Below are positions 42,328 through 58,890 of a stretch of DNA of 64,000 nt, in pieces. Position 1 is the first letter of the stretch; the number at the start of each line of letters is the position of its first letter. A program made the position numbers and the translations under genes. The notes under the pieces are model-generated. The model had not been told where the DNA came from and made no database searches. It worked only from the letters and a program-made list of their open reading frames with translations. Source of the DNA: a virus (lineage: Duplodnaviria; Heunggongvirae; Uroviricota; Caudoviricetes); IMG/VR virus record IMGVR_UViG_3300042473_000506; one strand, given 5' to 3'.

Positions 42328-42936
42328 TCAGTCTTTCCATCTAATAGTATTCCAATCAAACATAAAATTTAAGTTAAGTTGTTCGTACGCTATCCATTGT
42401 TTAGTGTACTGAATATTAAGAGGAAAATCAATTACATTAAAATTATTATAAAATAGATGATGTAATTGTCTAGGTGATCGAGTTTCACCTAATCTTTTTC
42501 TTTTAAATGTTTCTATCAAATTTTTATTATAGTCATTAAATGTGATAGCAATAGCTTTACAATTATTGTCTATTGCCCATTGTTTGTGCATTGGTAAAAA
42601 AAGTTCTCTAGGTAATCCTAAATGTCGGTAATCTTTTGTAACCCATGTTCTACATCCGCCTATGGCAACTTCATTGGAGAATTCACTTCTATAAACTCCC
42701 GAACAGGCTACAATAGTTTCATTTTTTATCGCTAAGTGAAACGCTCCACTGGTTTCAAAATATCGATGCCTGTTGTATATTTGATGTATTAGTGTGTTAG
42801 ATTTAGTATGCCAATCTTCTACCCACATATTGCTGTGTGCTAGCTGAGTAATTTCTTCTGATGCCTCTTGACAAAATTTAAAAAATAAACTTTTATCCTC
42901 TAACTCGTCATACCGAATAAGTGTTAGATCAGACAT
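42328..42936 (-). CDS. hypothetical protein (possible acyltransferase fold)
   Basis: ORF between paralogues; no secure motif. Confidence 0.3.
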   Translation of the reverse strand: MSDLTLIRYDELEDKSLFFKFCQEASEEITQLAHSNMWVEDWHTKSNTLIHQIYNRHRYFETSGAFHLAIKNETIVACSGVYRSEFSNEVAIGGCRTWVTKDYRHLGLPRELFLPMHKQWAIDNNCKAIAITFNDYNKNLIETFKRKRLGETRSPRQLHHLFYNNFNVIDFPLNIQYTKQWIAYEQLNLNFMFDWNTIRWKD

Positions 42937-43542: not shown

Positions 43543-44169
43543 ATGAAACATATTATGATAGTAGCCACACCACTTAACCTTCCTACTGTAGTCCCTGACG
43601 ATTGGTCTGTATTTTGGAATATTTGGAACAATTATGGAAAACCTATAGTTAAAACGCAACAAAACCATAAGGGATCTTATTCAAAAATTGGAGATACAGA
43701 TGTCTGGAAAGGTTTAGATATCTATAAAAATAATTTATTTCGATCTGCATGGACTGCACCTTACTATGATATTCGAGAAGAACTTCCCTTAATGTATCAA
43801 ATGATTACAAAAATTCCTCTATTCTCTCTTGTCACTGGTGTTAGGGTTGTAGAAAGCCTAGGAAATATTCCGCCACACACTGATGATAATATAGATCGAT
43901 GGAACGTTAGAGCAATGTTGCATTATACTGATTCGAACCCTCAATGGTTTTTTACTAAACCGAATGATACAAAAACTGCTGTGTTGTTAACATTGCCAGA
44001 GTCCACTAATTGGTTTGCATATAACGATAAGTACACATGGCATGGGTCGAAGTATAACCCGGATCACCCTAAATTATTAATTCAAATGTTTGGAGTAGGA
44101 TTTAAGAACAGTCAGTTCCTACAAAAAAGTGCAGAAATGTACAAAGAATATACAATATCATATGACTAA
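43543..44169 (+). CDS. 2OG/Fe(II)-oxygenase-like protein, paralogue 7 (divergent)
   Basis: 'IPPHTDDNIDRWNVRAMLHY' ... 'KYTWHGSKYN'. Confidence 0.4.
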   Translation: MKHIMIVATPLNLPTVVPDDWSVFWNIWNNYGKPIVKTQQNHKGSYSKIGDTDVWKGLDIYKNNLFRSAWTAPYYDIREELPLMYQMITKIPLFSLVTGVRVVESLGNIPPHTDDNIDRWNVRAMLHYTDSNPQWFFTKPNDTKTAVLLTLPESTNWFAYNDKYTWHGSKYNPDHPKLLIQMFGVGFKNSQFLQKSAEMYKEYTISYD

Positions 44170-44950
44170 TTTATTTCAAGCTAGTTCAACTACTGTTAGG
44201 TATTCTCATATTGTAGCAAGGTTAGCAATTATTATAGGTGCATTCTTTGTAACATTTAATTTACCCTTATTACTTGTGTCTGCTATTGCATATCATGTTT
44301 TACTATCTATCGGTATAAGCATAATGATGCATAGATACTTCAGCCATAAAAGTTTTGAATTTAAAAATAATATTGTCAGAAAAGTTTTTATTATAATTTC
44401 ATTGCTTTCGTTGCGAGGAAGTCCAATAGCTTGGGCATACATCCATCGAGCACATCACGAACACGTAGATACCGAAGATGATCCGCATACTCCTGTTGGT
44501 AGAAAATTTAACTTTTTTGGATTACTTGACAACAAAAATAAAGCTGATGATATTCAGATATTTAAAATTAGATCTATGATGACCAAGGAGCACCTATTTA
44601 TTAATCAATACTATTGGTTGATCTTAGCATGTTTGTTAGTACCTTTTGCATTTATTAATTTTACATTATTTTATTATACATGGCTAGTTCCTGTAGTTCT
44701 TGTACAATTTTCTATTAATTTACAAAACTATTTAGGACATATGTCAGGTATAGGTGCGTATAGGACTTACACTAATCCATCTAGCGGCAATAGTCAAAAT
44801 AGTTTGTTATTGTGGCCTTTATATTTAGGTGAAGCGTGGCATAACAACCACCATGCACATGCTCGACATTATCACTACGGAACTGAAATAAGTGGAAAGT
44901 GGTGGGAGATCGATCCCGGTGCAATGCTCATTAAGTTACTGAAAAAATGA
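44162..44950 (+). CDS. integral-membrane di-iron fatty-acid desaturase / hydroxylase-like enzyme
   Basis: Three histidine boxes 'HRYFSH', 'HRAHHEH', 'WHNNHHAH' separated by hydrophobic spans. Confidence 0.6.
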   Translation: MTNLFQASSTTVRYSHIVARLAIIIGAFFVTFNLPLLLVSAIAYHVLLSIGISIMMHRYFSHKSFEFKNNIVRKVFIIISLLSLRGSPIAWAYIHRAHHEHVDTEDDPHTPVGRKFNFFGLLDNKNKADDIQIFKIRSMMTKEHLFINQYYWLILACLLVPFAFINFTLFYYTWLVPVVLVQFSINLQNYLGHMSGIGAYRTYTNPSSGNSQNSLLLWPLYLGEAWHNNHHAHARHYHYGTEISGKWWEIDPGAMLIKLLKK

Positions 44951-45507
44951 TACGATTTTTAACAATGGATGACTTGCCGGATTGCATGAAAATTGCACCA
45001 TTAAAAAATAGAACCGGTGGCACTGTTCCATTAACACTCGAAGGATTTTTAGGTGCCTTTGAAAAATATTTCCAGGATGATGAATTTTGCCGTGTGATTG
45101 GATACTTTGAAAATAATGAACTTGTTAGTTTTGTATGTATCAGAATGTTCGAAACTACGATGAGAGGAAAATTTTGGGTTATTTCGGGATTATATACTAA
45201 GAATTTTAAAAGTTATTTTAGCTTTAACCATTCAGGAATAGGCGAATTAATTAAATTTGCATTCGATTATGCTGAATCACGAGGTTGGTATGAATATTAT
45301 TATTGCACTGCCGAACGTGTAATAAATGTATATGAAAGACAATGGAAACGATCACACTCTCATAGATACGAACATATATTGTTAGACGTTGTTCCACCTA
45401 ATACAAAACCATTTTATGAATTGCACTGGAGACTAATGGGGCAAGAAGTTAAACCTGTCCCAATGATTGTTAAAAAGCGAGCGTTAAAACAAGAATTTAG
45501 AAAATAA
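44947..45507 (+). CDS. hypothetical protein (GNAT-like acyltransferase fold possible)
   Basis: 186-aa ORF; beta-alpha pattern only. Confidence 0.3.
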   Translation: MIRFLTMDDLPDCMKIAPLKNRTGGTVPLTLEGFLGAFEKYFQDDEFCRVIGYFENNELVSFVCIRMFETTMRGKFWVISGLYTKNFKSYFSFNHSGIGELIKFAFDYAESRGWYEYYYCTAERVINVYERQWKRSHSHRYEHILLDVVPPNTKPFYELHWRLMGQEVKPVPMIVKKRALKQEFRK

Positions 45508-45553
45508 AAATCAGTTATTTTATCCTATAAATATAATGCTCATAGGAAACTAA

Positions 45554-46330
45554 ATGAACACAGCATTTTTATCTAGCAGCACTAGGGGTGCTCAACTATT
45601 CTTGATATTAAATTTAATAGGTACTTTCGGTGCTGTCTGGTTGTACGGATTAAATTTTAATTCTTTTATGATGGTACTAGTGGGATACTTTTTATATGGT
45701 TGTTTAGGTATCGTCGTAACTTATCACAGAAATCTTTCTCACAATAGTTATAGAACACATCCGATCATTGTAAAGATATTTTCATTATTAGGATGCTTTG
45801 CAGGGACCGGCAGTCCACTTGCATGGGTGGCCATTCATATCAATCATCACTTAAAGAGTGACAAGCCTACTGATCCGCATAGTCCGTTATACAAAGGGGT
45901 AAAGATCTTTATGATGGATTATATAAATGAAGTTGATAAAGATACAAAATGGAGAATGAGGGCATTAGTCACTGACAGATTCCAGCAATTCCTACATAGA
46001 TATTATTTTGCAATCATTGCAACCTATAGCCTTGTACTATTTTTAATAGGAGGATTTTGGTTGATGGTATTTTTTCATTGGGCGCCTGCTGCAATGACCG
46101 CCCTTATGAGTAATGTTGTTAATTATGTGGGACACAAACCAAGTTGGTGGGGTGGATATAGAACACACAATCTAAATGATCAAAGTACAAATAATTGGCT
46201 ATGGGCTATTCCTAGTTGGGGGGAAGCGTGGCACAACAATCATCATAGATATCCTAGGAATTTTAGTTTTGGAAACAAGTGGTGGGAGATTGATATTTCG
46301 GCACTTGTAATTAGATTGATTAAAATTTAA
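45554..46330 (+). CDS. integral-membrane di-iron desaturase / hydroxylase-like enzyme, second paralogue
   Basis: Histidine boxes 'HRNLSH', 'HINHHLKSD', 'WHNNHHRYP'; same C-terminal 'KWWEID' as 44162..44950. Confidence 0.6.
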   Translation: MNTAFLSSSTRGAQLFLILNLIGTFGAVWLYGLNFNSFMMVLVGYFLYGCLGIVVTYHRNLSHNSYRTHPIIVKIFSLLGCFAGTGSPLAWVAIHINHHLKSDKPTDPHSPLYKGVKIFMMDYINEVDKDTKWRMRALVTDRFQQFLHRYYFAIIATYSLVLFLIGGFWLMVFFHWAPAAMTALMSNVVNYVGHKPSWWGGYRTHNLNDQSTNNWLWAIPSWGEAWHNNHHRYPRNFSFGNKWWEIDISALVIRLIKI

Positions 46331-47202
46331 TGAAATTTAATAGCAAACATCCAATTGTGGCTATGCCCATGAATGGAGTATCCAATGTTGACTTAGCTAT
46401 TGCTGTAACTCAAGCGGGTGCTGTACCTAGTTTGTCAATCTTTAATTATTATGAAGGTGGAAAAGTAAATCTAAAGCATGTAGATGCCAGTTTAAAAAGG
46501 TTTACAGATGCAACCAGTTCTACAGAAATAATTTTAAGTATGCACTGGGAACATTTTATATGGACTCCTGTTATAGATGTTCTATTAGAAAATAATATAA
46601 AATTAGTTGAACTTTTTATTAGACCATCAGATCATCATTTGTGGCCTGAATTATCTAAACAGATCGACAATATGAAGGTACACGGTATAGCTGTAATGTT
46701 TAAAACTTCTAATCGGCTACCTATGTCCTATTTTGATTCGATAGTATTGAAAGGTCCTCAGGCTGCTGGGAGATCATTCGGTAGTCTAGTATCATTAGAA
46801 GATCGATATGATGCTATGAAAGAACAAGTAGGATCAAGAATCATTCCAAGCGGTGGTATTGGCAGTCCTGAACAGGTAAAATATTTTATGGACAGAGAAG
46901 CATTAGCTGTGGGTATTGGCACACTACTTGCAGCATCTGAAGAAAGTTGTGTGTCAAGCGATACTAAACAAAAAATTATAGAGTCCACATCAAAAGATAT
47001 CAAATTAATAGGTCCGTTAAATTGCAGAGGGCTGTTATTTTCTAGACTAGAAAATGACGACGATAACAATTCCAAATCTCTATATGAGGGTATCAAGGGA
47101 ACTAATTCCGGATGCATCTATGTAGGCAACGGAATAGACTATATAAACAAAATAATGCCAGTAAAAGATATAATAGAGTGGTTAGTTAAAGATGTTAATT
47201 AA
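46330..47202 (+). CDS. FMN-dependent nitronate monooxygenase / FabK-like TIM-barrel oxidoreductase
   Basis: 'PIVAMPMNGVSNVDLAIAVTQAGAVPSLSIF' and 'IIPSGGIGSPEQVKYFMDREALAVGIGTLL' parallel the NMO/FabK FMN-binding blocks. Confidence 0.55.
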   Translation: MKFNSKHPIVAMPMNGVSNVDLAIAVTQAGAVPSLSIFNYYEGGKVNLKHVDASLKRFTDATSSTEIILSMHWEHFIWTPVIDVLLENNIKLVELFIRPSDHHLWPELSKQIDNMKVHGIAVMFKTSNRLPMSYFDSIVLKGPQAAGRSFGSLVSLEDRYDAMKEQVGSRIIPSGGIGSPEQVKYFMDREALAVGIGTLLAASEESCVSSDTKQKIIESTSKDIKLIGPLNCRGLLFSRLENDDDNNSKSLYEGIKGTNSGCIYVGNGIDYINKIMPVKDIIEWLVKDVN

Positions 47203-48358
47203 TAAGTTACTGGGCTATTATACATGTGACGGTTTAGAATTTGAATCAAAAATTCAAGCATGTTTTCATTCTCTTAAAGTCAACAAGCCAGTTGACTGGG
47301 TCTTTAATGATTTAGAATTTAGCATACACGACTGGACTAAAGAACCAGAAGAAACATTAGACCAATTATATGATAAACGAGTGAGAGATCTGCGAGCAAA
47401 ATACGATTATCTTATTTTAAGTTACAGCGGCGGCGCTGATAGCCATCAAATTTTAATGAGTTTTATTAGACAAGGTATACACTTAGATGAGCTGCTAATC
47501 AACACAATGGAAAAAGGTTGGAAACCTTATACTAGTTTAGATCCTAGAAATGTTTCTAGTTTGAATTCAGGGGCCGAGCATTACCTACAAACTATTCCAA
47601 GACTAAAAGAAGTAGAGCAGTTTATTCCAAAAACAAAGATTACAATCTGTGATCTAACTGATCAAGTTAACGATTCATTATTGTCAGTAGGTGATGCAAG
47701 CTGGGTATTGCAAAAAAGAGAAGCATTGAATCCTATAGGAATTACTCGATTTAACTATGTATACTTTGATGAAGTTCGTAGACTGTTTGATAAAGAGAAG
47801 AAGATAGGTATTATACTTGGAGTAGAAAAACCTAAAAGCATTATCCATGAAGGTCAATTTTGGATGAGATTCAATGATCGATCAGCTAACATGGTTACAA
47901 TTGTCGATCACATAAAAGATTACGACAACAGTGTTATTGAATATTTTTACTGGAGCCCTGAGTGTGTGCCATTATTAATCAAACAAGGACATGTGATAAA
48001 AAGATGGCTAGAATTAAATCCTAATTATCAGCAATACTGGAACACTAAAACTTCTAGTTATGCTTCTGTAAGATTTTGGCATGAGAGATTATTAAGAAAA
48101 GTTATGTATCCGACAACTTGGAATAATTCTTGGTTTCAAGTGCATAAAGCAACAAAAGATTGGTATAGCGAATTTGACAATTGGTTCATCGAAGGAAGCG
48201 TTAAAACAAAAGCCAATGTCATATGGCATGAGGGCATTGATTATGTTAGGAATTCTTTAACTCCATTTTTGAGATACGATTTAGAAACAAATCAACCAGA
48301 CGGATTACAATCCTTTGTTAAACAATATTTAATTGGTAGAGTTGAAACACGGTCTTAA
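47192..48358 (+). CDS. PP-loop ATP pyrophosphatase (adenine-nucleotide alpha-hydrolase superfamily)
   Basis: 'LILSYSGGADSHQILMSF' SGGxDS motif. Confidence 0.55.
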   Translation: MLINKLLGYYTCDGLEFESKIQACFHSLKVNKPVDWVFNDLEFSIHDWTKEPEETLDQLYDKRVRDLRAKYDYLILSYSGGADSHQILMSFIRQGIHLDELLINTMEKGWKPYTSLDPRNVSSLNSGAEHYLQTIPRLKEVEQFIPKTKITICDLTDQVNDSLLSVGDASWVLQKREALNPIGITRFNYVYFDEVRRLFDKEKKIGIILGVEKPKSIIHEGQFWMRFNDRSANMVTIVDHIKDYDNSVIEYFYWSPECVPLLIKQGHVIKRWLELNPNYQQYWNTKTSSYASVRFWHERLLRKVMYPTTWNNSWFQVHKATKDWYSEFDNWFIEGSVKTKANVIWHEGIDYVRNSLTPFLRYDLETNQPDGLQSFVKQYLIGRVETRS

Positions 48359-49263
48359 TCTTTTGTTTTGATCTTATTTTCTAAAATAAATTTTCTAATA
48401 TTGTCATTATAATTCAACGATTCTTTAATCTTAGATTTATCAGTATCTGATTTGAAAAATAATCCTATATCAGTAAGCCCTTGCTTATATTCTGCTGATT
48501 GAAATATTGTTTTTAGATCAGCTGTAATTTTACCTTTAGTATATTCATCCATAGTCTTAGGAACAATTACTGAAAGATAGCTTTGGAATGGGAACACTTC
48601 TTTATAAAAACTTTCCCATGTTGATGTTTTTAATCCAACAGCATGACTAGTTAATAATAATTTTAAATTTTCGTGATTGGTGTAGGCTTTAACTGTCGGG
48701 TAGTTGCCAAACATACAATCAACATGCCCGCCAACTAAATCTAATACAGACTTATTTCCCCCTTGAGCATAGGGAACGACGATATGATTGTTTTTAGTTT
48801 TTGATAGTAATACTTCAGTGGCGATATGTTCGGAAGACCCATAACCTCCAACAGCAAAGGACAATGATTTTTTAGTATTGATAAAGTCTTGATAGGATGT
48901 TATTCCTGTTTTAGCATTACAGAGTAATGCAGAGGGCATAATTCCTATAGTGGCCAGCACTTCTAAATCAATTTTGTGATCGTAATTTAAGTCGTTAAAA
49001 TTGATAGGGTTGGTAACAAAAACTTGAACTACAGTAGCCAGTAGCATAGTTTTTTCATTCATTAAATGACCCATAGCAATTTTGCCAGATGCTCCTGGCC
49101 GATTGACTACTACATATTTTTTATCTAAGTTTTTAGCGATATACCGTGTTGTGATATCGCTCACACCACCGGGAGCGTGCATAACTGTAAACTCTAATGA
49201 TTGAGCTACTGCAACTTTTGAAAAAAATAAAATTAATAAAAGAAAAAATTTGTTGATTAGCAT
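48355..49263 (-). CDS. secreted TctC/Bug-family-like solute-binding protein
   Basis: Signal peptide 'MLINKFFLLLILFFSKVAVAQS'; 'HAPGGVSDITTRYIA...VVNRPGASGKIAMGHL' resembles the TctC 'PAGGGTD...V.N.PGAGG' signature. Confidence 0.45.
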   Translation of the reverse strand: MLINKFFLLLILFFSKVAVAQSLEFTVMHAPGGVSDITTRYIAKNLDKKYVVVNRPGASGKIAMGHLMNEKTMLLATVVQVFVTNPINFNDLNYDHKIDLEVLATIGIMPSALLCNAKTGITSYQDFINTKKSLSFAVGGYGSSEHIATEVLLSKTKNNHIVVPYAQGGNKSVLDLVGGHVDCMFGNYPTVKAYTNHENLKLLLTSHAVGLKTSTWESFYKEVFPFQSYLSVIVPKTMDEYTKGKITADLKTIFQSAEYKQGLTDIGLFFKSDTDKSKIKESLNYNDNIRKFILENKIKTKD

Positions 49264-49281
49264 GATATATAAATATTCTTT

Positions 49282-49848
49282 ATGTACTTCTCATACTTAT
49301 CTCTTCCAAGATTACCTAAAGAATTTTTTGCTCAATGTTTGGAAAATGTAAAATACATTGGTGTAGATCCTAGACTAGAAAATGTTAATAGTTATCGAGG
49401 GCCAATGAATCGAGCTACGTATCTGCCCGAAGAATGTAATACATGGATTATTAGAAATATTGTATTTCCGTTATATGGAAGTATTCCTTCAACTCTAAAA
49501 TTAAATTTATTAAATGTAACTACATACCAAAAGTTAAAACCTCAAGAAGAGACATGGGGTACACACCCTAAACATATCGACAAAGGCAGAAACTGGGCAT
49601 TAAATTATTATTTTACCACTGGTGGAAGTAATACTACCGTTAGGTGGTACGAAGATAATGTTGTGGCAGCAGAAACACCACCTATAGAAATTAATAGATG
49701 GTGTTTATTAAAAGTTAATCAACTACACGATGTTAGAGGAATTGAAGAAGGTCAAATTCGATATTTTTTAACATTGAATATTTCTTCTGAAAATATAGAT
49801 AATTTTAAATCAGTAATTGATCAAAATACAGTGATTGAAAAAAAATGA
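49282..49848 (+). CDS. 2OG/Fe(II)-oxygenase-like protein, paralogue 8 (divergent)
   Basis: 'HPKHIDKGRNWALNYYF' ... 'NQLHDVRG' ... 'RYFLTLN'. Confidence 0.4.
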   Translation: MYFSYLSLPRLPKEFFAQCLENVKYIGVDPRLENVNSYRGPMNRATYLPEECNTWIIRNIVFPLYGSIPSTLKLNLLNVTTYQKLKPQEETWGTHPKHIDKGRNWALNYYFTTGGSNTTVRWYEDNVVAAETPPIEINRWCLLKVNQLHDVRGIEEGQIRYFLTLNISSENIDNFKSVIDQNTVIEKK

Positions 49849-51377
49849 CAGTAGATTGTTTGTTACTATATGGTAATCATTTATTACCTATGTCTAAATA
49901 TGCGGGAACATTTCGAATTGCTAGCGAGTTAAGAAATGCAGGCTATACTGTTCAGTGTATTGATATGACAGCGTATGAAGACAACCGTGAAGAACTCATC
50001 GATACAATAAAGATGTTTATAGGTAATAATACATTATGGGTGGGAATTAGTACAACCTTTTTGCGTCATGTATTTGGATATCCCTATTTTCGTACGATAG
50101 ATTCATTTAATGTAAAATCTACAACTATCCCAAATATTGATAAAGAAATTTTAAATTTTATTAAAACCGTTAAGGATATTAATCCAAACGTAAAATTTAT
50201 TGCCGGTGGCTCGAAAAGATTTATGATCGAGAAATACGGTTTTAAAGTTTTTACAAAAAATAATGATACTGAAATTATTGAGTTTACAGATTATTGTGCA
50301 AAAAAATCTAAAAAAATACCAGTAAGTTTTTTAGAATCACTGATTGAAGGTTCAGAATTTCAACAGTTTACAACAAGCCAAAATATCTTTACTAAGAACG
50401 ATATTGTCGAATCGTCAGATACCCTTCCTATTGAAGTTAGTAGAGGTTGTATTTTTAAATGTAAATTTTGTTCATTTCCACTTAATGGTAAAAAGAAAGG
50501 CGAATGGGTTAAACGTTCTAATGTATTGTATGAAGAGTTTATAAAGAATTATGAGTTGCATGGAGTAACAGAATACAGTTTTTCCGATGACACATACAAT
50601 GATAGTGAAGAAAAAGTTAAAAGATTGTATGACGAAGTGTATAGTAGGCTACCATTTAAATTAAACTTTACTACATATTTGAGACTTGATTTAATGATAA
50701 AATTTCCCGACACAGTGAAATACTTACAAGAGTCAGGTTTAAAATCAGCAGTCTTTGGTATAGAAACAATAAATCATAATTCAGGTAAGGCTATTGGCAA
50801 AGGTTTAAATCCCATTGAACAATTTCAGTTTATTGAAGAAATTAAAAAAAATGAATTTAAAGAGATACTAACTCGTTCTGGATTTATATTAGGGTTGCCA
50901 AAAGACAGACACGACGAGATTAATATCCTAGAAGAATTCTTATTTTCAGAAAAGAATAAATTAGATGACTTTAGTGTAGAACCTTTGATTATATTTCCTC
51001 CAAAATTTGATCAAACAAAATTTAAAGATTTTTCTGAATTTGATATAGAATATGAAAAATATGGATATAAGATTTATGAAAACATCGAAACATCTTCTAT
51101 TACTGAAATTAGATGGACCAACGATTATATCGGAATGACTTTTGATCAAGTAGCTAAAGCTGCAAAAAAAATAAATGTAAGAAAATATTTCGATGGTAGA
51201 TTCAAGTGCGGTGGATTTGGTTACAATTGGCATAGGTCTCTCGGAATTCCAGCAGATGATCTAGTGGCACTGAGTCGGAATGAAATATATACAAAGTATA
51301 ACGTCAAACAACTGCTAAAAACAAAAAAAGATAATTATCGATCATTAATACTTAATGTAATGAAAAATAATGAATAA
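49845..51377 (+). CDS. B12-binding-domain radical SAM enzyme (class-B rSAM-like)
   Basis: N-terminal Rossmann-like B12-binding region then 'SRGCIFKCKFCSF' CxxxCxxC cluster; 'TYLRLDL', 'ESGL..A.FGIE'; paralogue of 62063..63565. Confidence 0.65.
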   Translation: MTVDCLLLYGNHLLPMSKYAGTFRIASELRNAGYTVQCIDMTAYEDNREELIDTIKMFIGNNTLWVGISTTFLRHVFGYPYFRTIDSFNVKSTTIPNIDKEILNFIKTVKDINPNVKFIAGGSKRFMIEKYGFKVFTKNNDTEIIEFTDYCAKKSKKIPVSFLESLIEGSEFQQFTTSQNIFTKNDIVESSDTLPIEVSRGCIFKCKFCSFPLNGKKKGEWVKRSNVLYEEFIKNYELHGVTEYSFSDDTYNDSEEKVKRLYDEVYSRLPFKLNFTTYLRLDLMIKFPDTVKYLQESGLKSAVFGIETINHNSGKAIGKGLNPIEQFQFIEEIKKNEFKEILTRSGFILGLPKDRHDEINILEEFLFSEKNKLDDFSVEPLIIFPPKFDQTKFKDFSEFDIEYEKYGYKIYENIETSSITEIRWTNDYIGMTFDQVAKAAKKINVRKYFDGRFKCGGFGYNWHRSLGIPADDLVALSRNEIYTKYNVKQLLKTKKDNYRSLILNVMKNNE

Positions 51378-51426
51378 TTATCTAGGTAGAGTTAAATTAA
51401 CATTTTTACAAAATTAGAACTAACAA

Positions 51427-52347
51427 ATGGAAAGACATAATCAATGGATGAGCTACAGTTTTGATGCTATAGAATATGGCAAAAAAACTGATTCAAATTC
51501 TATTTTTAAAATTCATTTTAATAAAAAAATAGATAAAAATCTCCCTTCTTATAGAGATGCATTATTTAATAATGCCCGTATTATGCGAGACTCGTATAAT
51601 GAACCATTTGATGTAATGTTGTCAGGCGGAGTTGATAGCGAAATGGTTGTGCGAACATTTCATGCTGTGGGAATTAAACACAATACATTTATTTTTAGAT
51701 TAGAAAATGATTATAACATTCGAGATGTTAATTATGCCATAGCTGTTTGTAAAGAACTAAACATTAATTATAAAATAATAGATTTTAATTTACAAAAATT
51801 CTTCGAAAATGATGCACTTGATTTATTTCAAAAGACACTAATTCCAAGATCAGGAAGAATAGTGAGACTTGCGTGGTTTAACTATCTTGATAATATTCCA
51901 GTTTTTTGTGACGGTGAACCCTACTGGCGCAGGGATGCAAATAAAGATTTTAGTAAAAAATCTACGTGGAGATTAATTTTAAACGAAGACGGATACTCGT
52001 GTTCTACCTATGCTAAATCAATTGGTAGAGTAGCGATTGGGGATTGGTATGAATATACCCCCGAATTGTTATTGTCATACAACGAATTGCCGTTAGTTAA
52101 AAAATTACTCAACGACGAAATCTCAGGGAAGATTAGTTCCTGGAGTAGCAGGTCTGCTATTCACAGAGATATCTGGCCTACTGTACAGGATAAAATAAAA
52201 TTAGCAGGATACGAAGGTGCAGACGGCAATCCTGTATTGAGTCGTCCGGATTTTATGAATCACTTTCAGGTAACGTATATGAATCAAGTGTCCAATACTC
52301 ATTACGAATATACTGAAGAAGAACTAAGAAATTTAATCCTTAATTAG
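51427..52347 (+). CDS. asparagine-synthetase-like PP-loop amidotransferase domain protein
   Basis: 'FDVMLSGGVDSEMVVRTF' followed by 'FCDGEPYW' (compare AsnB 'SGEGSDEVFGGY'); paralogue of 55967..56896. Confidence 0.5.
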   Translation: MERHNQWMSYSFDAIEYGKKTDSNSIFKIHFNKKIDKNLPSYRDALFNNARIMRDSYNEPFDVMLSGGVDSEMVVRTFHAVGIKHNTFIFRLENDYNIRDVNYAIAVCKELNINYKIIDFNLQKFFENDALDLFQKTLIPRSGRIVRLAWFNYLDNIPVFCDGEPYWRRDANKDFSKKSTWRLILNEDGYSCSTYAKSIGRVAIGDWYEYTPELLLSYNELPLVKKLLNDEISGKISSWSSRSAIHRDIWPTVQDKIKLAGYEGADGNPVLSRPDFMNHFQVTYMNQVSNTHYEYTEEELRNLILN

Positions 52348-53172
52348 ATTTTCTCGGACCCAACGTCCCCAATGTATACAATGATACTCGTATTTTGATA
52401 GTGATTCGGTAACAGGAAAGAATTTTGTTTTTATCTTTTCGATCGCAGCAACATCTTCCCTAAACACAGTTTCTAATGTTTCAAATTCGATACGATCATT
52501 ATGTGGAACATCAGGGGCATAATAGAATTGTGTAATCCATTCGAATTTCCATTCTATATTTTTATCTGCAGGAACAATAGTGTTTACTGACAGGCATCCT
52601 TTCTTATGCTCGACAAAGGTGTAGGGGTATATATAGAGTGACCACCAACCTGGAGAATGTTCTTGGAATATCCATCCATCTCCTTGATCCATAACAACAT
52701 TATCTAAATCAATTTGTTCAGAGAGTCTCGGATGAATTCCATCCTTTTGTACATGTAAATAATCTGCTTCAGCATCCATGAGCCATAACCAGCTTCCCTC
52801 GCTTTTACCTTGAAGAGAATGACTATATTCTAGCGTTGTTTCTTTTTCCAGATCATCGACCCATTGATGGTCTGGTTCGATAAAATCTTTAAATACTAAC
52901 CCTGATCGACCAACAGTTGCAGTCCCACAATTTAATTTTTTAGAATTATTAATTGGTGTGCCATTTGCATCCCATTGAAATCCGTGGAACTTACATGTAA
53001 TGCTGTTGATATGTGTTCCTGGATCAGCTAGTGGATACATTCTGTGGGGACAAAATCTGTGAAATAAATTTACTATATTACCTTGTTTATTTAGAATATA
53101 TTCAGAAACTGCAAAGTTCTTGTCCTGCAATGCACTGAGATGAGCAAAAATTTTAGGAGATTTAATAAACAT
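52333..53172 (-). CDS. Rieske [2Fe-2S] non-heme-iron oxygenase
   Basis: 'CPHRMYPLADPGTHINSITCKFHGFQW' = CxH-x16-CxxH Rieske motif. Confidence 0.6.
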   Translation of the reverse strand: MFIKSPKIFAHLSALQDKNFAVSEYILNKQGNIVNLFHRFCPHRMYPLADPGTHINSITCKFHGFQWDANGTPINNSKKLNCGTATVGRSGLVFKDFIEPDHQWVDDLEKETTLEYSHSLQGKSEGSWLWLMDAEADYLHVQKDGIHPRLSEQIDLDNVVMDQGDGWIFQEHSPGWWSLYIYPYTFVEHKKGCLSVNTIVPADKNIEWKFEWITQFYYAPDVPHNDRIEFETLETVFREDVAAIEKIKTKFFPVTESLSKYEYHCIHWGRWVRENLIKD

Positions 53173-53204
53173 TGTAAGAGTAATGTGCGTATATAAATAG
53201 TTGT

Positions 53205-53792
53205 ATGTATGCTATTTACTTAAACGACATAGAAAGATTTATTGCGATTGAAAAAGATCTTTGGATTGCACATGCATCGGCAAAATTGCTATCTTCAAAA
53301 TTATCTATCTCTATATGTGATATCGGAAATGCATTGTCTGTAACTAACTATAACTGTTTTCAATGGACATTGTCAAGTGTAGACTTGCCCGCCTCTACAC
53401 AATATCCAAAATTAGTTGTACCAAAAGATTCTAAATTAGAATTTGTCGGTGATCCTATTAATACAGATATGGAAATGTTAAAATTGCATCAGCAATTTTG
53501 TTTGTTAGTATTAAAGGTTGTTTTTGCGGCAAAAATGACCGACATTGAATTAAATTCAGGAGATCGAAAATATTTTCAATCTTTACTTAAAAACGACACT
53601 TTACTATCTGCGTCGGACGAGTCCGGAATTCCTGGAGGGTTTTTACATACAATAGAAAGAATTCTTTATTTGAGTTCAAATGTAACGCACGTTATGTCTC
53701 ATATTGAATTAATGTTTAATAATTCAGAGAGTATATTTCCTAGAAATCTTGCACAATATAAATTACTATTTTACAAATACTTAAATGCATAA
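53205..53792 (+). CDS. hypothetical protein
   Basis: ORF. Confidence 0.3.
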   Translation: MYAIYLNDIERFIAIEKDLWIAHASAKLLSSKLSISICDIGNALSVTNYNCFQWTLSSVDLPASTQYPKLVVPKDSKLEFVGDPINTDMEMLKLHQQFCLLVLKVVFAAKMTDIELNSGDRKYFQSLLKNDTLLSASDESGIPGGFLHTIERILYLSSNVTHVMSHIELMFNNSESIFPRNLAQYKLLFYKYLNA

Positions 53793-55077
53793 ATTTTATT
53801 ACAAAACCTTTGATCCAAACCTTAGAAGTTTTTCTAAATTGCTCAGTAACAATGTAACTGATTTACCACCAGGCGGCAGATTCTATTTTAATCTTGCAAG
53901 ATCAATGCGTATGAGCGGTGAGAATTACCTATTTAGAGATGGGGAGTGGAGTGATCCTTTTAAAACTGTGGTCCACCCTACCTTTGCTATGCCATCATAT
54001 ACGTCAAATTTTAATTTAAATTTTTCAGAAGTATCGGACTTAAGGTCTCTCGATATTAAAAAAATCATCAACGATACTGATCGGTCGATAGTAATTCAAT
54101 GGTCTGGAGGAATTGACAGTACTGTAGCACTTGTATCTTTATTAAAAAATCTGTCACATTCTGAATTGTCAAATGTAATTATTGCAATGAGTAGCGACAG
54201 CCTTTTAGAAAATCCTAATTTTTATAATAAGTTTATTAAAGATAAATTCAAAATTATTGATTCTGAAAATATGTTGTTTAACGATTATAAAGAAAAATAC
54301 AATGCATATTGCATCATGGGAGACACAGGCGATTGTCTATTTGGTTCAGAATTAGGAAATAAATTATACCCTAAGATGAAATTTATACAAGATAACACTG
54401 GTCATCTTTATAACAAAATTAGTTCACCTGATGTACATTATTCAATCTATAGGGATATCATTGTACAGTATTTTAATGATAATCTTCAAACTTCAATACT
54501 TTCTTTAAAACAACAAGGTGTAGTTAACAGTAGTATTAGCGAATTTATTTCAGGGGACGAAACGTTTGGAGAACTATTCTACGAAAAAATTGTTAAGAAT
54601 ATAGAAACATGCAGTGTTCCTATATACAGTCTACATGACTTTTTCTGGTGGACAATCTTTAGTGGAAGATATATATTCTGTGCCCTAAGAGGACCTAGTG
54701 TGTTTAGCATCGGCGCCAATAAAGAGGCATTAATTAATGATTGTCTTATTCAATGGTTTAATACCGACGAATATCAACTATGGTCTATGAATAATAATAA
54801 CAATGGGGAAAAGTTATCTGGGCCTATACAAGGCCTTGGAAAAACTGCTGCAAAAAAATACATTTACGATTTTGATAAAAACGAATGGTATTTTACGCAT
54901 AAGATGAAAGTCGTGTCGTCACCAAATATTCTTAGAAGAAACTGGCGTAAACATTTTGCAGATTTTGATCCTATGCTAGGTGTTGATACAAATTACAATT
55001 TGATTAAAATAGGACCAGCGACAGTTAACAATTATGTCATTAATAGACTAATGAACTACAAAATAGATTGGTGTTAA
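53785..55077 (+). CDS. PP-loop ATP pyrophosphatase
   Basis: 'VIQWSGGIDSTVALVSLL' SGGxDS motif. Confidence 0.5.
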   Translation: MHKFYYKTFDPNLRSFSKLLSNNVTDLPPGGRFYFNLARSMRMSGENYLFRDGEWSDPFKTVVHPTFAMPSYTSNFNLNFSEVSDLRSLDIKKIINDTDRSIVIQWSGGIDSTVALVSLLKNLSHSELSNVIIAMSSDSLLENPNFYNKFIKDKFKIIDSENMLFNDYKEKYNAYCIMGDTGDCLFGSELGNKLYPKMKFIQDNTGHLYNKISSPDVHYSIYRDIIVQYFNDNLQTSILSLKQQGVVNSSISEFISGDETFGELFYEKIVKNIETCSVPIYSLHDFFWWTIFSGRYIFCALRGPSVFSIGANKEALINDCLIQWFNTDEYQLWSMNNNNNGEKLSGPIQGLGKTAAKKYIYDFDKNEWYFTHKMKVVSSPNILRRNWRKHFADFDPMLGVDTNYNLIKIGPATVNNYVINRLMNYKIDWC

Positions 55078-55970
55078 TTTTGAGTTATTTCTTTCTTATA
55101 TCGTTCTCTGAAAGACTTTAATAAAGAAATACTTGAATGGTAATGCAATTTTGAATCTTGATTATAAAAGACAGGACTTATAAAGTCTCCTAATCCAAAC
55201 AACTTATTCTTGCCTAAATTCATTGTAGCTTGATGAAATATAGCGGATATATTTTCTTTAGTTTCTTTGGGCATTTCTTTTGATGCCATAGTGAAATGAA
55301 AGATATATGGAGCTGTAATTTTTTGCTCAGTTAACGTTTTAATATTTGGGAGATCTGGGTGTCGTTCTGTGCAACTCATTCCGATTATTTGTAAGTTAGG
55401 ATTCTTTGCCTTGTACTGATTAAATGCAGATACACGCTCAACAATAAAGTTAATACTATTATTGTCAGAAGCCATGTGGAGCAGTGCATCTGCATTGCTT
55501 CGATACACAATATAGCGAACAGGTATATTATATTTTTTTCCTAGTTCTAGACCTAGTAGATGAGTAGCACCACCTATAGCAGGGCCGCCTATGGTAAGTT
55601 CTTTAGGAAGCTCATTTTCTTTAAAGTTAGTAATAATTGCCCAGCAGGCACTTCCGTGACTAAACACTGGTTCTAATTTATTTAGGTCAATTAGTCCTCT
55701 ACTTTCAGCTTCGACTACACTATTGGTAATAGTCACAACACGATTTTTTGGTTGTTCTAATGCCTCTCGAACACCTATACTTTCAAAGCCACCAGCTTTA
55801 AATTCTGTAACAAATTTATATTTGTTTTGTATTTTATTTGCTTCATCTAACACAGCGAATATTTGAGGAGTCATACTTTGCGTAGGTCCTTGAGCATTTA
55901 TTACTACAATAGTTTCTTGTGCCTGTGCTAGATTTAAAAATAACAATAAACTTACAATTATAAACTTCAT
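55074..55970 (-). CDS. secreted periplasmic-binding-like protein
   Basis: Signal peptide 'MKFIIVSLLLFLNLAQAQE'; size and layout like 48355..49263. Confidence 0.4.
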   Translation of the reverse strand: MKFIIVSLLLFLNLAQAQETIVVINAQGPTQSMTPQIFAVLDEANKIQNKYKFVTEFKAGGFESIGVREALEQPKNRVVTITNSVVEAESRGLIDLNKLEPVFSHGSACWAIITNFKENELPKELTIGGPAIGGATHLLGLELGKKYNIPVRYIVYRSNADALLHMASDNNSINFIVERVSAFNQYKAKNPNLQIIGMSCTERHPDLPNIKTLTEQKITAPYIFHFTMASKEMPKETKENISAIFHQATMNLGKNKLFGLGDFISPVFYNQDSKLHYHSSISLLKSFRERYKKEITQN

Positions 55971-56896
55971 GGGATTCCTTTAAATTTTTTGTTTACTTCT
56001 TCAAGTGAATACGTAAAACTAAGATTGGTTAAGTCTGACATTTGATTTTCCATATAAAAATCTTTAAAAAATTTAGGAAGACTTTCTAAAGGTGTTCCAG
56101 TCGGACCTTCGTAACCAATTAATTTTGATTTATTTTTTATGTCTGGCCATATCTGTTGATGTAAAGATATTCTACTAGAGAGGGTGCTTTTTTTGCCTAC
56201 ATTTTTATCATCTAGCAAATCTTTTATAAGATCATTTTGATGGTAACTCATTGTAATGTAGGGAGTGTATAGGTACCATTCTCCTATAATCTCTCTATTA
56301 TGATGGTGTGATGTTAACGACATAAAAAGCTGGCGCTCAGTAAGATACAGAGACCAATTAGATTTTTTTGTATAATCACTGAGCAAGTCTCGTTTCCAAT
56401 AAGGAGATCCTTCACCAAAAACAGGTATGTTATCTAAATAATCTAACCATTTAATTTTTGATAAGGACGGACTATGCGGCACTAACGTTTTTTCAAATAT
56501 GTCTTTAGCATCGTGTTCATAAAATTTAGATAAGTTAAAATCAATAATTTTATAAGGTATATTTAATGTTTCACATATCTGTATTGAAGAATTAATATCT
56601 CGAATATTTAAATTATCTTCGTACCTAAAAATAAATGTATTATGTGTTATACCTAAATCTTTAAAAGTGCGAACTATCACTTCGCTATCTATGCCACCGG
56701 ATAATAAAACATCAAACGGCTCTGAAAAAGAATCTCGCATAATACTTGCATTTTGTATCAATGCATCATGATACGACATTGGCATAATGTCGTTAGAGAT
56801 ATTAAAATGAATGTCCAGGAAAGATCTTCTAGAAGATTTAGGAGAATTTAAAATTCCGTCAAAAGAATACGTCATCCAATCTCTAAATCTTCTCAT
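55967..56896 (-). CDS. asparagine-synthetase-like PP-loop amidotransferase domain protein (paralogue)
   Basis: 'FDVLLSGGIDSEVIVRTF', 'FGEGSPYW'; ~50% identical over long stretches to 51427..52347. Confidence 0.5.
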   Translation of the reverse strand: MRRFRDWMTYSFDGILNSPKSSRRSFLDIHFNISNDIMPMSYHDALIQNASIMRDSFSEPFDVLLSGGIDSEVIVRTFKDLGITHNTFIFRYEDNLNIRDINSSIQICETLNIPYKIIDFNLSKFYEHDAKDIFEKTLVPHSPSLSKIKWLDYLDNIPVFGEGSPYWKRDLLSDYTKKSNWSLYLTERQLFMSLTSHHHNREIIGEWYLYTPYITMSYHQNDLIKDLLDDKNVGKKSTLSSRISLHQQIWPDIKNKSKLIGYEGPTGTPLESLPKFFKDFYMENQMSDLTNLSFTYSLEEVNKKFKGIP

Positions 56897-56902: not shown

Positions 56903-57235
56903 TTAAAGTTCTTCTTTTTCTACCGGGTCAGAATAAATGCCTACAGAAGTGTTATATGCATCGAGAGCGGCAGTTCTTTCAATCGTTACACTACGACTTG
57001 CATAGTCCTCGTAGAGTTCTTTACTTTCCCATATGAATTCTACTTCTAATGTCAGCTCGTCCGGTTCGGATAACGTTCTGATTTTTCTCCCATGAAACTC
57101 TCCGAACATCATTTCTAACATTCGGGTATTTAAATCTTCATCTAAGTTTAGATTAAAATACCATTCTATCGTTTCATTCGGTCTATGAAATCTGCTTAAA
57201 ACTCTATATGCCATGCTAATTCTCCAGTGATACAA
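56903..57235 (-). CDS. hypothetical protein
   Basis: ORF. Confidence 0.3.
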   Translation of the reverse strand: MYHWRISMAYRVLSRFHRPNETIEWYFNLNLDEDLNTRMLEMMFGEFHGRKIRTLSEPDELTLEVEFIWESKELYEDYASRSVTIERTAALDAYNTSVGIYSDPVEKEEL

Positions 57236-58674: not shown

Positions 58675-58749
<75 letters not shown>

Positions 58750-58890
58750 TTATCTTGTGAATTTTCTTACTAGTTTTAGCCAGTAGTATTTAACTCCGCG
58801 GAATGATGGAGGCCAATCCATTCCGAAACTAGGAGTTATTTCTTTTGGGACATTACCGTATGCTTTGTCAAGCGTTTCTTTTACTTTCAT
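58750..58890 (-). CDS. small ORF (46 aa) with strong RBS; not in ORF track
   Basis: Hand translation 'MKVKETLDKAYGNVPKEITPSFGMDWPPSFRGVKYYWLKLVRKFTR'; AAGGAG 5 nt upstream of ATG. Confidence 0.3.
   Translation of the reverse strand: MKVKETLDKAYGNVPKEITPSFGMDWPPSFRGVKYYWLKLVRKFTR

What the first reader, a model, noticed from the sequence alone, without database searches (positions are those of the whole stretch)
47192..56896. Four PP-loop (SGGxDS) ATP-pyrophosphatases, two of them asparagine-synthetase-like, within 10 kb
47192..48358 (SGGADS), 51427..52347 (SGGVDS + FCDGEPYW), 53785..55077 (SGGIDS) and 55967..56896 (SGGIDS + FGEGSPYW) all carry the adenine-nucleotide alpha-hydrolase P-loop. 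The 51427/55967 pair also has the AsnB C-domain second motif (cf. SGEGSDE), i.e. carboxylate-adenylating amide or beta-lactam synthetase chemistry without a glutaminase domain. Four such enzymes next to oxygenases and rSAMs point to repeated ATP-dependent C-N or C-S bond formation. Comparable combinations occur in 7-deazapurine and thionucleoside pathways, AsnB-like beta-lactam/lasso-type cyclases and some tRNA modifications.
Basis: partly seen in the sequence, partly recalled or inferred. Interest (0 to 1): 0.65.

Follow-up and report, generated by a model that had tools for sequence, protein, structure and literature searches.

The report
Phage-only asparagine-synthetase-like ATP enzymes
A variable island of an uncultured T4-like phage carries four ATP-using enzymes that resemble the synthetase half of asparagine synthetase, belong to large protein families found almost only in environmental phages, and sit beside fatty-acid desaturases and carboxylate-binding proteins, but their substrates are unknown.

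Summary
The six-frame translation of the window contains SGGxDS four times, once in each named ORF, against 0.015 expected. One correction: 55967-56896 lies on the minus strand.

The ORFs represent three families: A (51427-52347 and 55967-56896, 50% identical), B (47192-48358) and C (53785-55077). The motif is kept in about 95% of 120 homologs per family.

None of the families keeps a cysteine cluster, which argues against C-S chemistry. No QueC, QueE, lasso or beta-lactam context was found.

The families are absent from Pfam and from 50,697 deposited phage genomes. Family A is nearly absent from 185,579 prokaryotic species genomes but abundant in viral metagenome contigs.

Each family keeps its own partners:
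- A: a desaturase, an unknown 186-aa protein and GNAT, plus a carrier protein in distant relatives.
- B: a FabK-like protein and a secreted TctC-like binding protein.
- C: an unknown 195-aa protein and a TctC- or DctP-like protein.

Most likely all four adenylate a carboxylate and form an amide. Substrates are unknown.

The parts
47192..48358 (+). Family B PP-loop protein (388 aa; SGGADS at 47426-47443)
   Evidence: ORF and motif. G81 and D83 are invariant and S79, G80 and S84 at least 90% conserved in 81 diverse homologs. hhalign to family C gives probability 93.7%, E 1.9e-7, over 42 columns round the loop. There is no Pfam or PDB sequence hit. A profile finds 1643 clusters at 50% identity. 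The fold was not modelled.
51427..52347 (+). Family A (A1), stand-alone AsnB-type synthetase domain (306 aa; SGGVDS at 51622-51639; second motif FCDGEPYW)
53785..55077 (+). Family C, AsnB-type synthetase-like protein (430 aa; SGGIDS at 54103-54120; second motif GDTGDCLFG)
55967..56896 (-). Family A paralog (A2, 309 aa; SGGIDS at 56684-56701; second motif FGEGSPYW)
   Evidence: It is 50% identical to A1 over 301 residues, E 2e-109. Its Pfam QueC hit reaches 24 bits over the N-terminal 63 residues only. It overlaps the downstream TctC-like gene by 4 nt.
46330..47202 (+). NMO/FabK-like FMN enzyme, overlaps the start of B by 11 nt
   Evidence: Pfam NMO E 3.7e-14. NCBIfam FabK E 4.4e-10, far below the family cut-off. 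An NMO-like gene is the immediate upstream gene of 12 of 109 related B genes.
48355..49263 (-). TctC-like solute-binding protein 1 with signal peptide, convergent with B
   Evidence: Pfam TctC 83.5 bits. A TctC-like gene is first or second downstream of B in 45 of 109 cases. The phage TctC-like proteins with a clean start codon, and both in the window, begin with a signal peptide; a few start further upstream of the hydrophobic stretch.
49282..49848 (+). Cupin-like ~180-aa ORF, similar in size and position to the cupin-like paralogs at 39354-43477 but with no detected homolog
   Evidence: ORF. Its own phmmer search of the locus ORFs found nothing, and only a marginal Pfam hit was seen.
49845..51377 (+). 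B12-binding-type radical SAM enzyme upstream of A1
   Evidence: Pfam Radical_SAM E 2e-11. The closest NCBIfam families are lipid-biosynthesis B12/rSAM, PhpK and HpnJ, all far below cut-off. The CxxxCxxC motif is present. The rSAM-A-Rieske order recurs in L004, L005 and L007.
52333..53172 (-). Rieske [2Fe-2S] protein, convergent with A1 and overlapping it by 15 nt
   Evidence: Pfam Rieske E 9e-8. It is the immediate neighbour of A in the clade closest to the window.
53205..53792 (+). Unknown 195-aa partner (u195), overlaps the start of C by 8 nt
   Evidence: It has no Pfam hit. A u195-like gene lies directly upstream of C in 36 of 99 cases, and a more distant related cluster does so in 30 more.
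55074..55970 (-). TctC-like solute-binding protein 2 with signal peptide, downstream of A2 and convergent with C
   Evidence: Pfam TctC E 6.3e-5 at 23.1 bits, below the gathering score of 27. The signal peptide is visible. TctC- or DctP-like genes follow C in related loci.
44129..46330 (+). Desaturase - u186 - desaturase cassette (44129-44950, 44947-45507, 45554-46330), the conserved companion of family A
   Evidence: Pfam FA_desaturase E 1e-12 and 3.6e-16. NCBIfam DesA-family match is below cut-off. A u186-like gene directly follows A in 57 of 102 cases and a desaturase is second downstream in 40 of 102. In L006 the second desaturase abuts A1.
42328..42936 (-). GNAT-type acyltransferase, a recurrent member of the family A cassette
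   Evidence: Pfam Acetyltransf_1 E 1.8e-4. hhalign to the GNAT cluster found next to A gives probability 98.6%. A GNAT is second upstream of A in 26 of 102 cases.
56903..57235 (-). Unknown 110-aa ORF upstream of A2 (u110 family)
   Evidence: ORF with no Pfam hit. The family recurs 73 times in the related loci.

Best explanation
The four ORFs encode stand-alone synthetase-type enzymes of the AsnB branch of the PP-loop ATP-pyrophosphatase superfamily. They fall into three families that are essentially restricted to phages: A in two copies, B and C.

Proposed mechanism, by analogy with AsnB, beta-lactam synthetase and TsnB9:
1. The SGGxDS loop binds ATP.
2. A substrate carboxylate attacks the alpha-phosphate, giving an acyl-AMP and PPi.
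3. A nitrogen nucleophile displaces AMP and forms an amide.
Because there is no glutaminase domain, the nitrogen must come from free ammonia, from an amine co-substrate or from a partner protein.

The four genes are not one pathway. They belong to separate modules that shuffle within a hyperplastic, low-GC island of a T4-like phage:
- Family A travels with Delta9-type fatty-acid desaturases, an unknown 186-aa protein and a GNAT. In distant relatives a phosphopantetheine carrier protein sits directly upstream. This suggests an acyl or lipid-type carboxylate.
- Family B travels with a FabK/NMO-like flavoenzyme and a secreted TctC-like binding protein, and is sometimes paired with or fused to an A-like protein.
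- Family C travels with an unknown 195-aa protein and a TctC-like or signal-peptide-less DctP-like binding protein. This suggests small organic acids recognised by those binding proteins.

Shown: the motifs, the folds of A and C, the absence of a glutaminase domain, the taxonomic restriction and the gene-order statistics.
Inferred: adenylation, amide formation and the substrate classes.
For: Motif:
- Four SGGxDS sites against 0.015 expected.
- Conserved in about 95% of homologs.

Fold:
- C: pLDDT 94.3; TsnB9 13.6, BLS 13.2, AsnB 12.9, CarA 11.2.

Second acidic motif conserved after the fourth strand:
- A: [DE]162-G-E164-P-Y-W.
- C: D180-x-G-D183-x-[IL]-F-G.
- B: G210-x-[DE]212-K-P.

Chemistry: no conserved cysteine cluster in any family.

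Modules:
- Gene-order statistics over 235 IMG/VR loci.
- PP-binding carrier protein at 28.9 bits (gathering score 20.8) directly upstream of A in 28 loci, and DctP at 129.7 bits after C.
- Signal peptides on the TctC-like proteins and none on the DctP-like ones.
- Natural fusion of an A-like and a B protein, P0517.
- The NMO-B-TctC-cupin-rSAM block is a 5.06-kb insertion relative to a phage whose A protein is 91% identical.

Distribution:
- 224 (A), 280 (B) and 458 (C) confirmed IMG/VR stretches.
- 1643 B-family clusters at 50% identity.
- Two contigs of one MAG among 185,579 species genomes for A.
- None in 50,697 GenBank phage records.
Against: - No enzymology and no ligand is known.
- The fold of B was not modelled, and its similarity to A and C is limited to 42-80 residues round the PP-loop.
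- The equivalence of the second motif to AsnB E348/D351 was judged by eye from sequence and predicted secondary structure, not by superposition.
- The carrier protein is absent from this window.
- The lipid theme rests on sub-threshold family matches and on gene neighbourhood.
- TctC-like proteins are periplasmic while the ATP-dependent enzymes must be cytoplasmic, so their link, if functional, is indirect.
- u186 could not be assigned a fold.
- PP-loop enzymes of similar fold also catalyse non-amide chemistry.
Confidence: 0.5

Rival explanations
1. The enzymes modify nucleic acid bases. They would serve the phage's tRNAs or DNA through 7-deazaguanine, lysidine/agmatidine-like or thiolation chemistry, activating a base carbonyl or carboxylate with ATP as QueC, TilS, TtcA or MnmA do.
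For: - An array of 18 tRNA genes starts 1.8 kb from A2.
- tRNA genes lie within 8-10 kb in 30/79 A loci, 34/78 B loci and 18/78 C loci.
- The window encodes GTP cyclohydrolase I (24656-25354) and a PTPS/QueD-like protein (13177-13683), the first two steps toward 7-deazaguanine.
- Weak Pfam and PHROG hits to QueC and tRNA_Me_trans cover the N-terminal 65 residues.
Against: - There is no conserved cysteine cluster for Zn, Fe-S or persulfide chemistry.
- There is no QueE-type radical SAM and no further SGGxDS ORF in the window.
- The conserved immediate partners are desaturases, a carrier protein, GNATs and solute-binding proteins, not RNA- or DNA-binding or transglycosylase genes.
- More than half of the related loci have no tRNA nearby. 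Proximity may simply reflect where variable islands sit in T4-like genomes.
Confidence: 0.1
2. They are intramolecular cyclases or peptide-tailoring enzymes of a phage-encoded natural-product or RiPP-like pathway. Like beta-lactam synthetase, carbapenam synthetase or lasso cyclases, they would close a ring or cap a peptide, working with the radical SAM, Rieske and cupin oxygenases.
For: - Beta-lactam synthetase and CarA match nearly as well as AsnB.
- The island contains two B12-type radical SAM enzymes, a Rieske protein and many cupin/2OG-type paralogs.
- NCBIfam also gives weak RiPP-type radical SAM matches.
- A carrier protein accompanies distant A members.
Against: - No precursor peptide, leader peptidase or transglutaminase-like partner turned up among the conserved neighbours.
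- Known lasso cyclases and beta-lactam synthetases retain an N-terminal Ntn-like domain that A, B and C lack (this point is from general knowledge).
- The modules shuffle independently instead of forming one fixed cluster.
Confidence: 0.1
3. Family A is a diverged NH3-dependent NAD or NMN synthetase that supports NAD salvage during infection.
For: - The best sequence-level PDB matches of the A profile are NadE proteins: 3p52 at E 7.1e-6 and 3fiu (NMN synthetase) at E 1.5e-3.
- Pfam NAD_synthase matches at E 2.5e-3.
Against: - The match covers only about 86 N-terminal residues, and the Pfam score of 17.4 is below the gathering score of 21.
- No NAD-salvage partner is a conserved neighbour.
Confidence: 0.04
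4. Some of the copies, especially B or one member of an A-like/B pair, are non-catalytic ATP-binding or scaffold subunits of heteromeric complexes and are not independent enzymes.
For: - An A-like family with a degenerate loop (TSGLDSQ) lies directly upstream of B in 35 loci.
- An A-like/B fusion protein exists.
- B has no detectable similarity to known enzymes outside the loop region.
Against: - In B itself the loop residues G81 and D83 are invariant and S79, G80 and S84 are at least 90% conserved across 81 sequences averaging about 25% column identity. About 20 further polar residues are equally conserved. This pattern is typical of an active site.
Confidence: 0.08

Closest known systems
Asparagine synthetase B (AsnB/ASNS), C-terminal synthetase domain
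   Same: It is the best or near-best structural match for A and C. It shares the SGGxDS PP-loop and an acidic G-[DE]-G / D-x-G-D-x-x-F-G second motif after a beta-strand. The expected chemistry is carboxylate adenylation followed by attack of a nitrogen nucleophile.
   Different: A, B and C have no N-terminal Ntn glutaminase domain: A is 306 aa in total and starts MERHNQ. Sequence identity is 10-14%. Pfam Asn_synthase is not reached at its gathering score. The proteins are phage-restricted, and their partner genes are unrelated to amino-acid synthesis.
Beta-lactam synthetase and carbapenam synthetase (BLS, CarA)
   Different: BLS and CarA keep a vestigial N-terminal domain and sit in fixed antibiotic gene clusters (general knowledge). 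No such cluster context was found here.
TsnB9 hydroxyamidotransferase (PDB 7ylz)
   Different: TsnB9 is 576 aa with an N-terminal domain. Identity is 10%. It belongs to a Streptomyces polyketide pathway (general knowledge).
NH3-dependent NAD synthetase (NadE)
   Same: It is the best sequence-level PDB match for family A around the PP-loop. It is a glutaminase-less PP-loop amidating enzyme of similar size.
Cyanophage lipid desaturase auxiliary genes (Roitman et al., PMC5776448)
   Same: They are Delta9-type desaturase genes carried by T4-like aquatic phages. This is the gene type that most consistently accompanies family A.
   Different: That paper does not mention PP-loop, asparagine-synthetase-like, Rieske or radical SAM neighbours. 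The present phage is not closely related to any deposited phage.

Membership tests
PP-loop ATP pyrophosphatase (adenine nucleotide alpha-hydrolase) superfamily | SGGxDS/T loop after the first beta-strand of a Rossmann-like fold | tested here: met
   The motif is present in all four ORFs and conserved in about 95% of homologs. In the A and C models it follows strand 1 (E61-64 and E101-105).
PP-loop ATP pyrophosphatase (adenine nucleotide alpha-hydrolase) superfamily | Alpha/beta nucleotide-binding fold shared with NadE, GuaA, QueC, TilS and PAPS reductase | tested here: met
Asparagine synthetase B family (class II glutamine amidotransferase, Pfam Asn_synthase) | N-terminal Ntn-type glutaminase domain with catalytic Cys after the initiator Met | tested here: not met
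Asparagine synthetase B family (class II glutamine amidotransferase, Pfam Asn_synthase) | Synthetase-domain fold including the helical C-terminal subdomain | tested here: met
Asparagine synthetase B family (class II glutamine amidotransferase, Pfam Asn_synthase) | Second motif SGEGSDE(V)FGG with the catalytic Glu and the Mg-binding Asp | tested here: inconclusive
   A has [CG]-[DE]-G-E-P-Y-W, C has A-D-x-G-D-x-I-F-G-T and B has G-x-[DE]-K-P, all highly conserved. Equivalence was judged from sequence order and predicted strands, not from a structural superposition.
Asparagine synthetase B family (class II glutamine amidotransferase, Pfam Asn_synthase) | Sequence match to Pfam PF00733 at the gathering score | tested here: not met
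   A1 scores 17.8 bits and A2 12.7 bits against a gathering score of 21. B and C have no hit. 17 of 64 C homologs match only weakly, best E 6e-4.
QueC (7-cyano-7-deazaguanine synthase) | About 220-aa PP-loop protein with a C-terminal four-Cys zinc site, co-occurring with QueD, QueE and FolE | tested here: not met
Sulfur-inserting PP-loop enzymes (TtcA/TtuA/NcsA, MnmA, ThiI, LarE, DndC) | Conserved cysteines for a [4Fe-4S] cluster or a persulfide | tested here: not met
   The only column with at least 90% Cys is C108 of family A. The wide B alignment has none at 50% or more. C has two columns at 58-72%.
NH3-dependent NAD synthetase (Pfam NAD_synthase) | Full-length match to the family model | tested here: not met
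Lasso peptide cyclase / beta-lactam synthetase clusters | Adjacent precursor peptide and leader peptidase (lasso), or dedicated beta-lactam pathway genes | tested here: not met
   The largest clusters of conserved unknown neighbours are carrier protein, DctP, DUF2061, GNATs, FA_hydroxylase, Asp_Arg_Hydrox and ATP-grasp. Very short ORFs under 70 aa were not searched systematically.

The most novel reading that the evidence does not exclude
Phages of uncultured aquatic bacteria carry their own toolkit of glutaminase-less AsnB-type adenylating enzymes, built into interchangeable modules with a specificity partner.

Family A would work on a phosphopantetheine carrier protein. It would either amidate a carrier-tethered acyl group or, which would be unprecedented for this fold, load the carrier through an acyl-AMP. 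Together with desaturases and GNATs it would then produce a phage-specified lipid or lipo-amino acid.

Families B and C, sometimes as heteromers with an A-like subunit, would amidate organic acids. A phage-encoded secreted TctC-like protein or cytoplasmic DctP-like protein would select those acids, so that the phage redirects host uptake and metabolism of carboxylates.
Probability: 0.2. Interest if true: 0.75.

Novelty: new variant of a known kind. Interest (0 to 1): 0.6.

Why it matters
These families are large: family B alone has 1643 clusters at 50% identity. They are confined to viruses, have no Pfam or PHROG family, and occur in no cultured or deposited phage. A well-understood catalytic scaffold has therefore diversified widely in environmental phages for a purpose nobody has examined.

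Their fixed pairing with desaturases, a carrier protein and carboxylate-binding proteins gives concrete, testable substrate hypotheses. It also points to phage manipulation of host lipids or of organic-acid uptake, a class of auxiliary metabolism that is barely documented.

For enzymology, stand-alone AsnB-type synthetases with new nucleophiles or acceptors are a possible source of new amide-forming catalysts.

Tried and rejected
- Megablast and tblastn of the island and of A, B and C against 50,697 GenBank phage records found no match. The closest rIIA is only 28% identical.
- The Foldseek afdb50 library was not available. The BFVD search returned only uncharacterised proteins of uncultured Caudovirales and a few entries annotated 'asparagine synthase'.
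- The diverse B alignment A5 could not seed a locus search, so A2 was used instead.
- Profile searches of PDB sequences with B found nothing meaningful. Pfam scans of 54 B homologs gave no PP-loop family.
- u186 could not be linked to GNATs by hhalign. Its PDB profile search gave only marginal GNAT hits.
- The carrier-protein, DctP, DUF2061 and FA_hydroxylase profiles from related loci find nothing in this window.
- Cluster look-up gave no source names beyond 'hypothetical protein'.
- Five literature searches and two papers gave nothing on these families.
- The promoter and terminator scan of the island was not above shuffles.
- I considered treating the four genes as one pathway and rejected it. 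The B block is an insertion relative to a close relative, and each family has different conserved neighbours.

Full report
**1. What the window is**

The window comes from a tailed phage of the T4-like type. It carries rIIA (33733-35910) and rIIB (32676-33755). It also carries collagen-repeat tail fibres with a Peptidase_S74 chaperone and an Mtd_N domain (3040-7637). No deposited phage is similar at the DNA level, and the nearest rIIA is only 28% identical.

The finding lies in a low-GC island at about 40-58 kb, with GC about 0.32 against about 0.42 in the flanks. The island sits between the rII side of the genome and an array of 18 tRNA genes (58676-64000).

**2. The observation**

All four ORFs exist as described. 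The exception is strand: 55967-56896 is on the minus strand.

SGGxDS occurs exactly four times in the six-frame translation of the whole window, once in each ORF. Shuffled sequence gave a mean of 0.015.

The ORFs fall into three families:
- Family A: A1 (51427-52347) and A2 (55967-56896), 50% identical.
- Family B: 47192-48358.
- Family C: 53785-55077.

Each family has hundreds of database relatives, all unnamed and metagenomic. The motif is kept in 115/120, 114/120 and 115/120 of them.

**3. What the proteins are**

Sequence-based evidence is thin:
- Pfam sees only the first ~65 residues of A1 and A2, as weak QueC, tRNA_Me_trans, NAD_synthase or Asn_synthase hits. It sees nothing in B or C.
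- PHROGs gives only marginal hits.
- Profile-profile comparison relates the families only round the loop. A-C has probability 82% over 35 columns, B-C 94% over 42 columns and A-B 60% over 74 columns.
- Iterated HMMs connect the families over about 80 residues.

Structure prediction settled two of the three families:
- C (pLDDT 94.3) matches TsnB9 (13.6, 258 residues), beta-lactam synthetase (13.2), AsnB (12.9) and CarA (11.2).

Neither protein has room for a glutaminase domain.

All three families keep a second acidic motif after a beta-strand:
- A: [CG]-[DE]162-G-E164-P-Y-W.
- C: A-D180-x-G-D183-x-[IL]-F-G. This lines up well with the AsnB motif SGEGSDEVFGG as I recall it.
- B: G210-x-[DE]212-K-P.

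No family has a conserved cysteine cluster. That argues against Fe-S, zinc or persulfide chemistry.

B remains a PP-loop protein by motif and local profile similarity only.

**4. Distribution**

- Family A: 224 confirmed stretches in IMG/VR. Only two short contigs of one archaeal MAG among 185,579 species genomes.
- Family B: 280 stretches in IMG/VR and 1643 clusters at 50% identity in 1.84 billion representatives.
- Family C: 458 or more stretches.
- None of the three is present in 50,697 GenBank phage records.
- BFVD returns structurally similar proteins only from uncultured Caudovirales.

**5. Context and modularity**

I fetched 235 related viral loci and labelled their ORFs with profiles of the window's genes. 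I then clustered the unlabelled neighbours. Each family has its own partners.

*Family A*
- A u186-like gene follows directly in 57 of 102 cases, and a fatty-acid desaturase follows that in 40 of 102.
- In the clade nearest the window the order is desaturase-u186-desaturase-(radical SAM)-A, with a Rieske gene as the next gene downstream, usually convergent.
- In the distant clade the order is GNAT, carrier protein, A, u186, desaturase. The carrier protein is 74 aa and matches Pfam PP-binding at 28.9 bits against a gathering score of 20.8, with a GLDSLD site. It lies directly upstream of A in 28 loci.
- This window has no carrier protein gene.

*Family B*
- A TctC-like gene is first or second downstream in 45 of 109 cases.
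- An NMO/FabK-like gene is the immediate upstream gene in 12.
- A fifth, A-like PP-loop family with a TSGLDSQ loop is the immediate upstream gene in 35.
- One database protein, P0517, is a fusion of an A-like and a B protein.

*Family C*
- A u195-like gene precedes it in at least 36 of 99 cases.
- A DctP-like protein (Pfam 129.7 bits) or a TctC-like protein follows it.

*Binding proteins*

The phage TctC-like proteins, including the two in the window, carry signal peptides. A few sequences start further upstream of the hydrophobic stretch. The DctP-like proteins start directly at the mature domain.

*Gene overlaps in the window*

These follow from the ORF coordinates:

| Pair | Overlap | Orientation |
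|---|---|---|
| NMO and B | 11 nt | same strand |
| u195 and C | 8 nt | same strand |
| cupin-like ORF and radical SAM | 4 nt | same strand |
| A2 and TctC-2 | 4 nt | same strand |
| A1 and Rieske | 15 nt | convergent |

*Evidence for shuffling*

One related phage has an A protein 91% identical to A1 (locus L006). In it, the second desaturase (window 45683-46334) abuts A1 plus Rieske (window 51395-53172). The NMO-B-TctC-cupin-radical SAM block at 46335-51394 is therefore a 5.06-kb insertion in the window. Beyond the Rieske gene the two phages differ entirely: L006 carries an array of seven desaturase paralogs.

The four enzymes are therefore not one pathway. They are members of separately shuffling modules.

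**6. Mechanism**

The best-supported reading is that all four bind ATP at the PP-loop, adenylate a carboxylate and pass the acyl group to a nitrogen nucleophile. Because they lack a glutaminase domain, the nitrogen would come from ammonia, an amine substrate or a partner protein.

The partners suggest the substrate class.

For A, the suggestion is an acyl or lipid-type acid. Its companions are:
- desaturases;
- a GNAT;
- a carrier protein in distant relatives;
- FA_hydroxylase and Asp_Arg_Hydrox relatives in related loci;
- a FabK-like protein and lipid-type B12 radical SAM matches, all below family cut-offs.

For B and C, the suggestion is small organic acids, because TctC and DctP proteins are carboxylate binders by general knowledge.

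The adenylation and amide steps and the substrates are inferences. Nothing here measures activity.

**7. Rivals**

*Nucleic-acid modification*
- For: the adjacent tRNA array; tRNA genes near 23-44% of related loci; FolE and a PTPS/QueD-like gene elsewhere in the window.
- Against: the fold ranking; the lack of cysteines; the absence of QueE or a canonical QueC; and the conserved partners.

*Cyclase or RiPP role*
- For: the similarity to beta-lactam and carbapenam synthetases, and the oxidative enzymes nearby.
- Against: no precursor peptide or peptidase was among the conserved neighbours. ORFs under 70 aa were not examined.

*NAD synthetase*
- It is the best sequence-level match but covers only the nucleotide-binding part.

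*Non-catalytic subunits*
- Some copies may be non-catalytic, given the A-like/B pairing and fusion. B's conservation pattern nevertheless looks catalytic.

**8. Novelty**

The scaffold is known. What appears undescribed is:
- three or four large phage-restricted families of glutaminase-less AsnB-type enzymes;
- their fixed pairings with desaturase, carrier protein and GNAT cassettes;
- their pairings with secreted or cytoplasmic solute-binding proteins.

Five literature searches found nothing on them. The cyanophage desaturase paper does not mention such neighbours.

Noticed in passing
window 58676-64000 (minus strand): An array of 18 tRNA genes runs off the window end. It includes two tRNA-Met(CAT), two Leu(TAA) and three Arg. 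A second B12-type radical SAM ORF (62063-63565) is embedded within it. Related islands often lie next to tRNA arrays: at least 5 tRNAs in 20/79 A loci and 23/78 B loci.
   Followed up: partly
window 24656-25354 and 13177-13683: GTP cyclohydrolase I (Pfam 137 bits) and a PTPS/QueD-like protein (55 bits) lie far from the island. This is a partial pterin or 7-deazaguanine precursor pathway. No QueE or QueC is present in the window.
   Followed up: partly
window 39354-43477: A run of six or more paralogous ~180-aa ORFs on alternating strands carries HxD...H cupin-type motifs. Only 41596-42315 gets weak Pfam 2OG-FeII_Oxy_3 and Asp_Arg_Hydrox hits. Related families recur about 200 times in the fetched loci. 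A similar-sized ORF at 49282-49848 found no homolog in those loci.
   Followed up: partly
window 46335-51394 versus L006: The window has a 5.06-kb insertion (NMO-like, B, TctC-like, cupin-like ORF, radical SAM) relative to a phage whose flanking genes are 82-87% identical at the DNA level. Downstream of the Rieske gene that phage instead carries seven tandem desaturase paralogs.
   Followed up: yes
related loci, e.g. L188 8297-9238 and L168 10145-11083: DctP-family solute-binding proteins in phages lack a signal peptide: all 20 distinct N-termini start at the mature domain. The phage TctC-like proteins generally have one. A cytoplasmic DctP-like protein next to an ATP-dependent enzyme is unexplained.
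   Followed up: partly
protein P0517 (688 aa): This is a natural fusion of an A-like PP-loop protein (residues 16-246, SGGADS) with a family B protein (294-667, SGGADS). It matches the frequent gene order of an A-like gene followed by B.
   Followed up: partly
L085, L086 (MAG Nitrososphaerales archaeon CRAIB_MAG96): These are the only family A hits in 185,579 species genomes. They are two short contigs (6 and 13 kb) of one archaeal MAG and carry the same GNAT, FA_hydroxylase, A, TctC and B neighbours. They are probably phage contigs binned by mistake.
   Followed up: no
window 9649-32398: Other auxiliary-type genes include:
- UvdE (9649-10677)
- GDP-mannose-dehydratase/epimerase-like (11476-12411)
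- cytidylyltransferase-like (12408-12890)
- ClpP (13784-14368)
- Bax1-I/YccA-like membrane protein (20492-21178)
- MazG/PRA-PH-like (21464-21835)
- UDP-glucose dehydrogenase-like (25404-26237)
- dCMP deaminase (27248-27781)
- GT2 and GT1 glycosyltransferases (27778-28533, 29840-30862)
- SPFH/Band 7 (31601-32398)
   Followed up: no
window 36696-39036: An HD-domain protein, an AAA_33 kinase-like protein and a dual-specificity phosphatase-like protein (HCxxGxxRS motif) sit between rIIA and the island. A similar DSPc gene occurs in the related locus L001.
   Followed up: no
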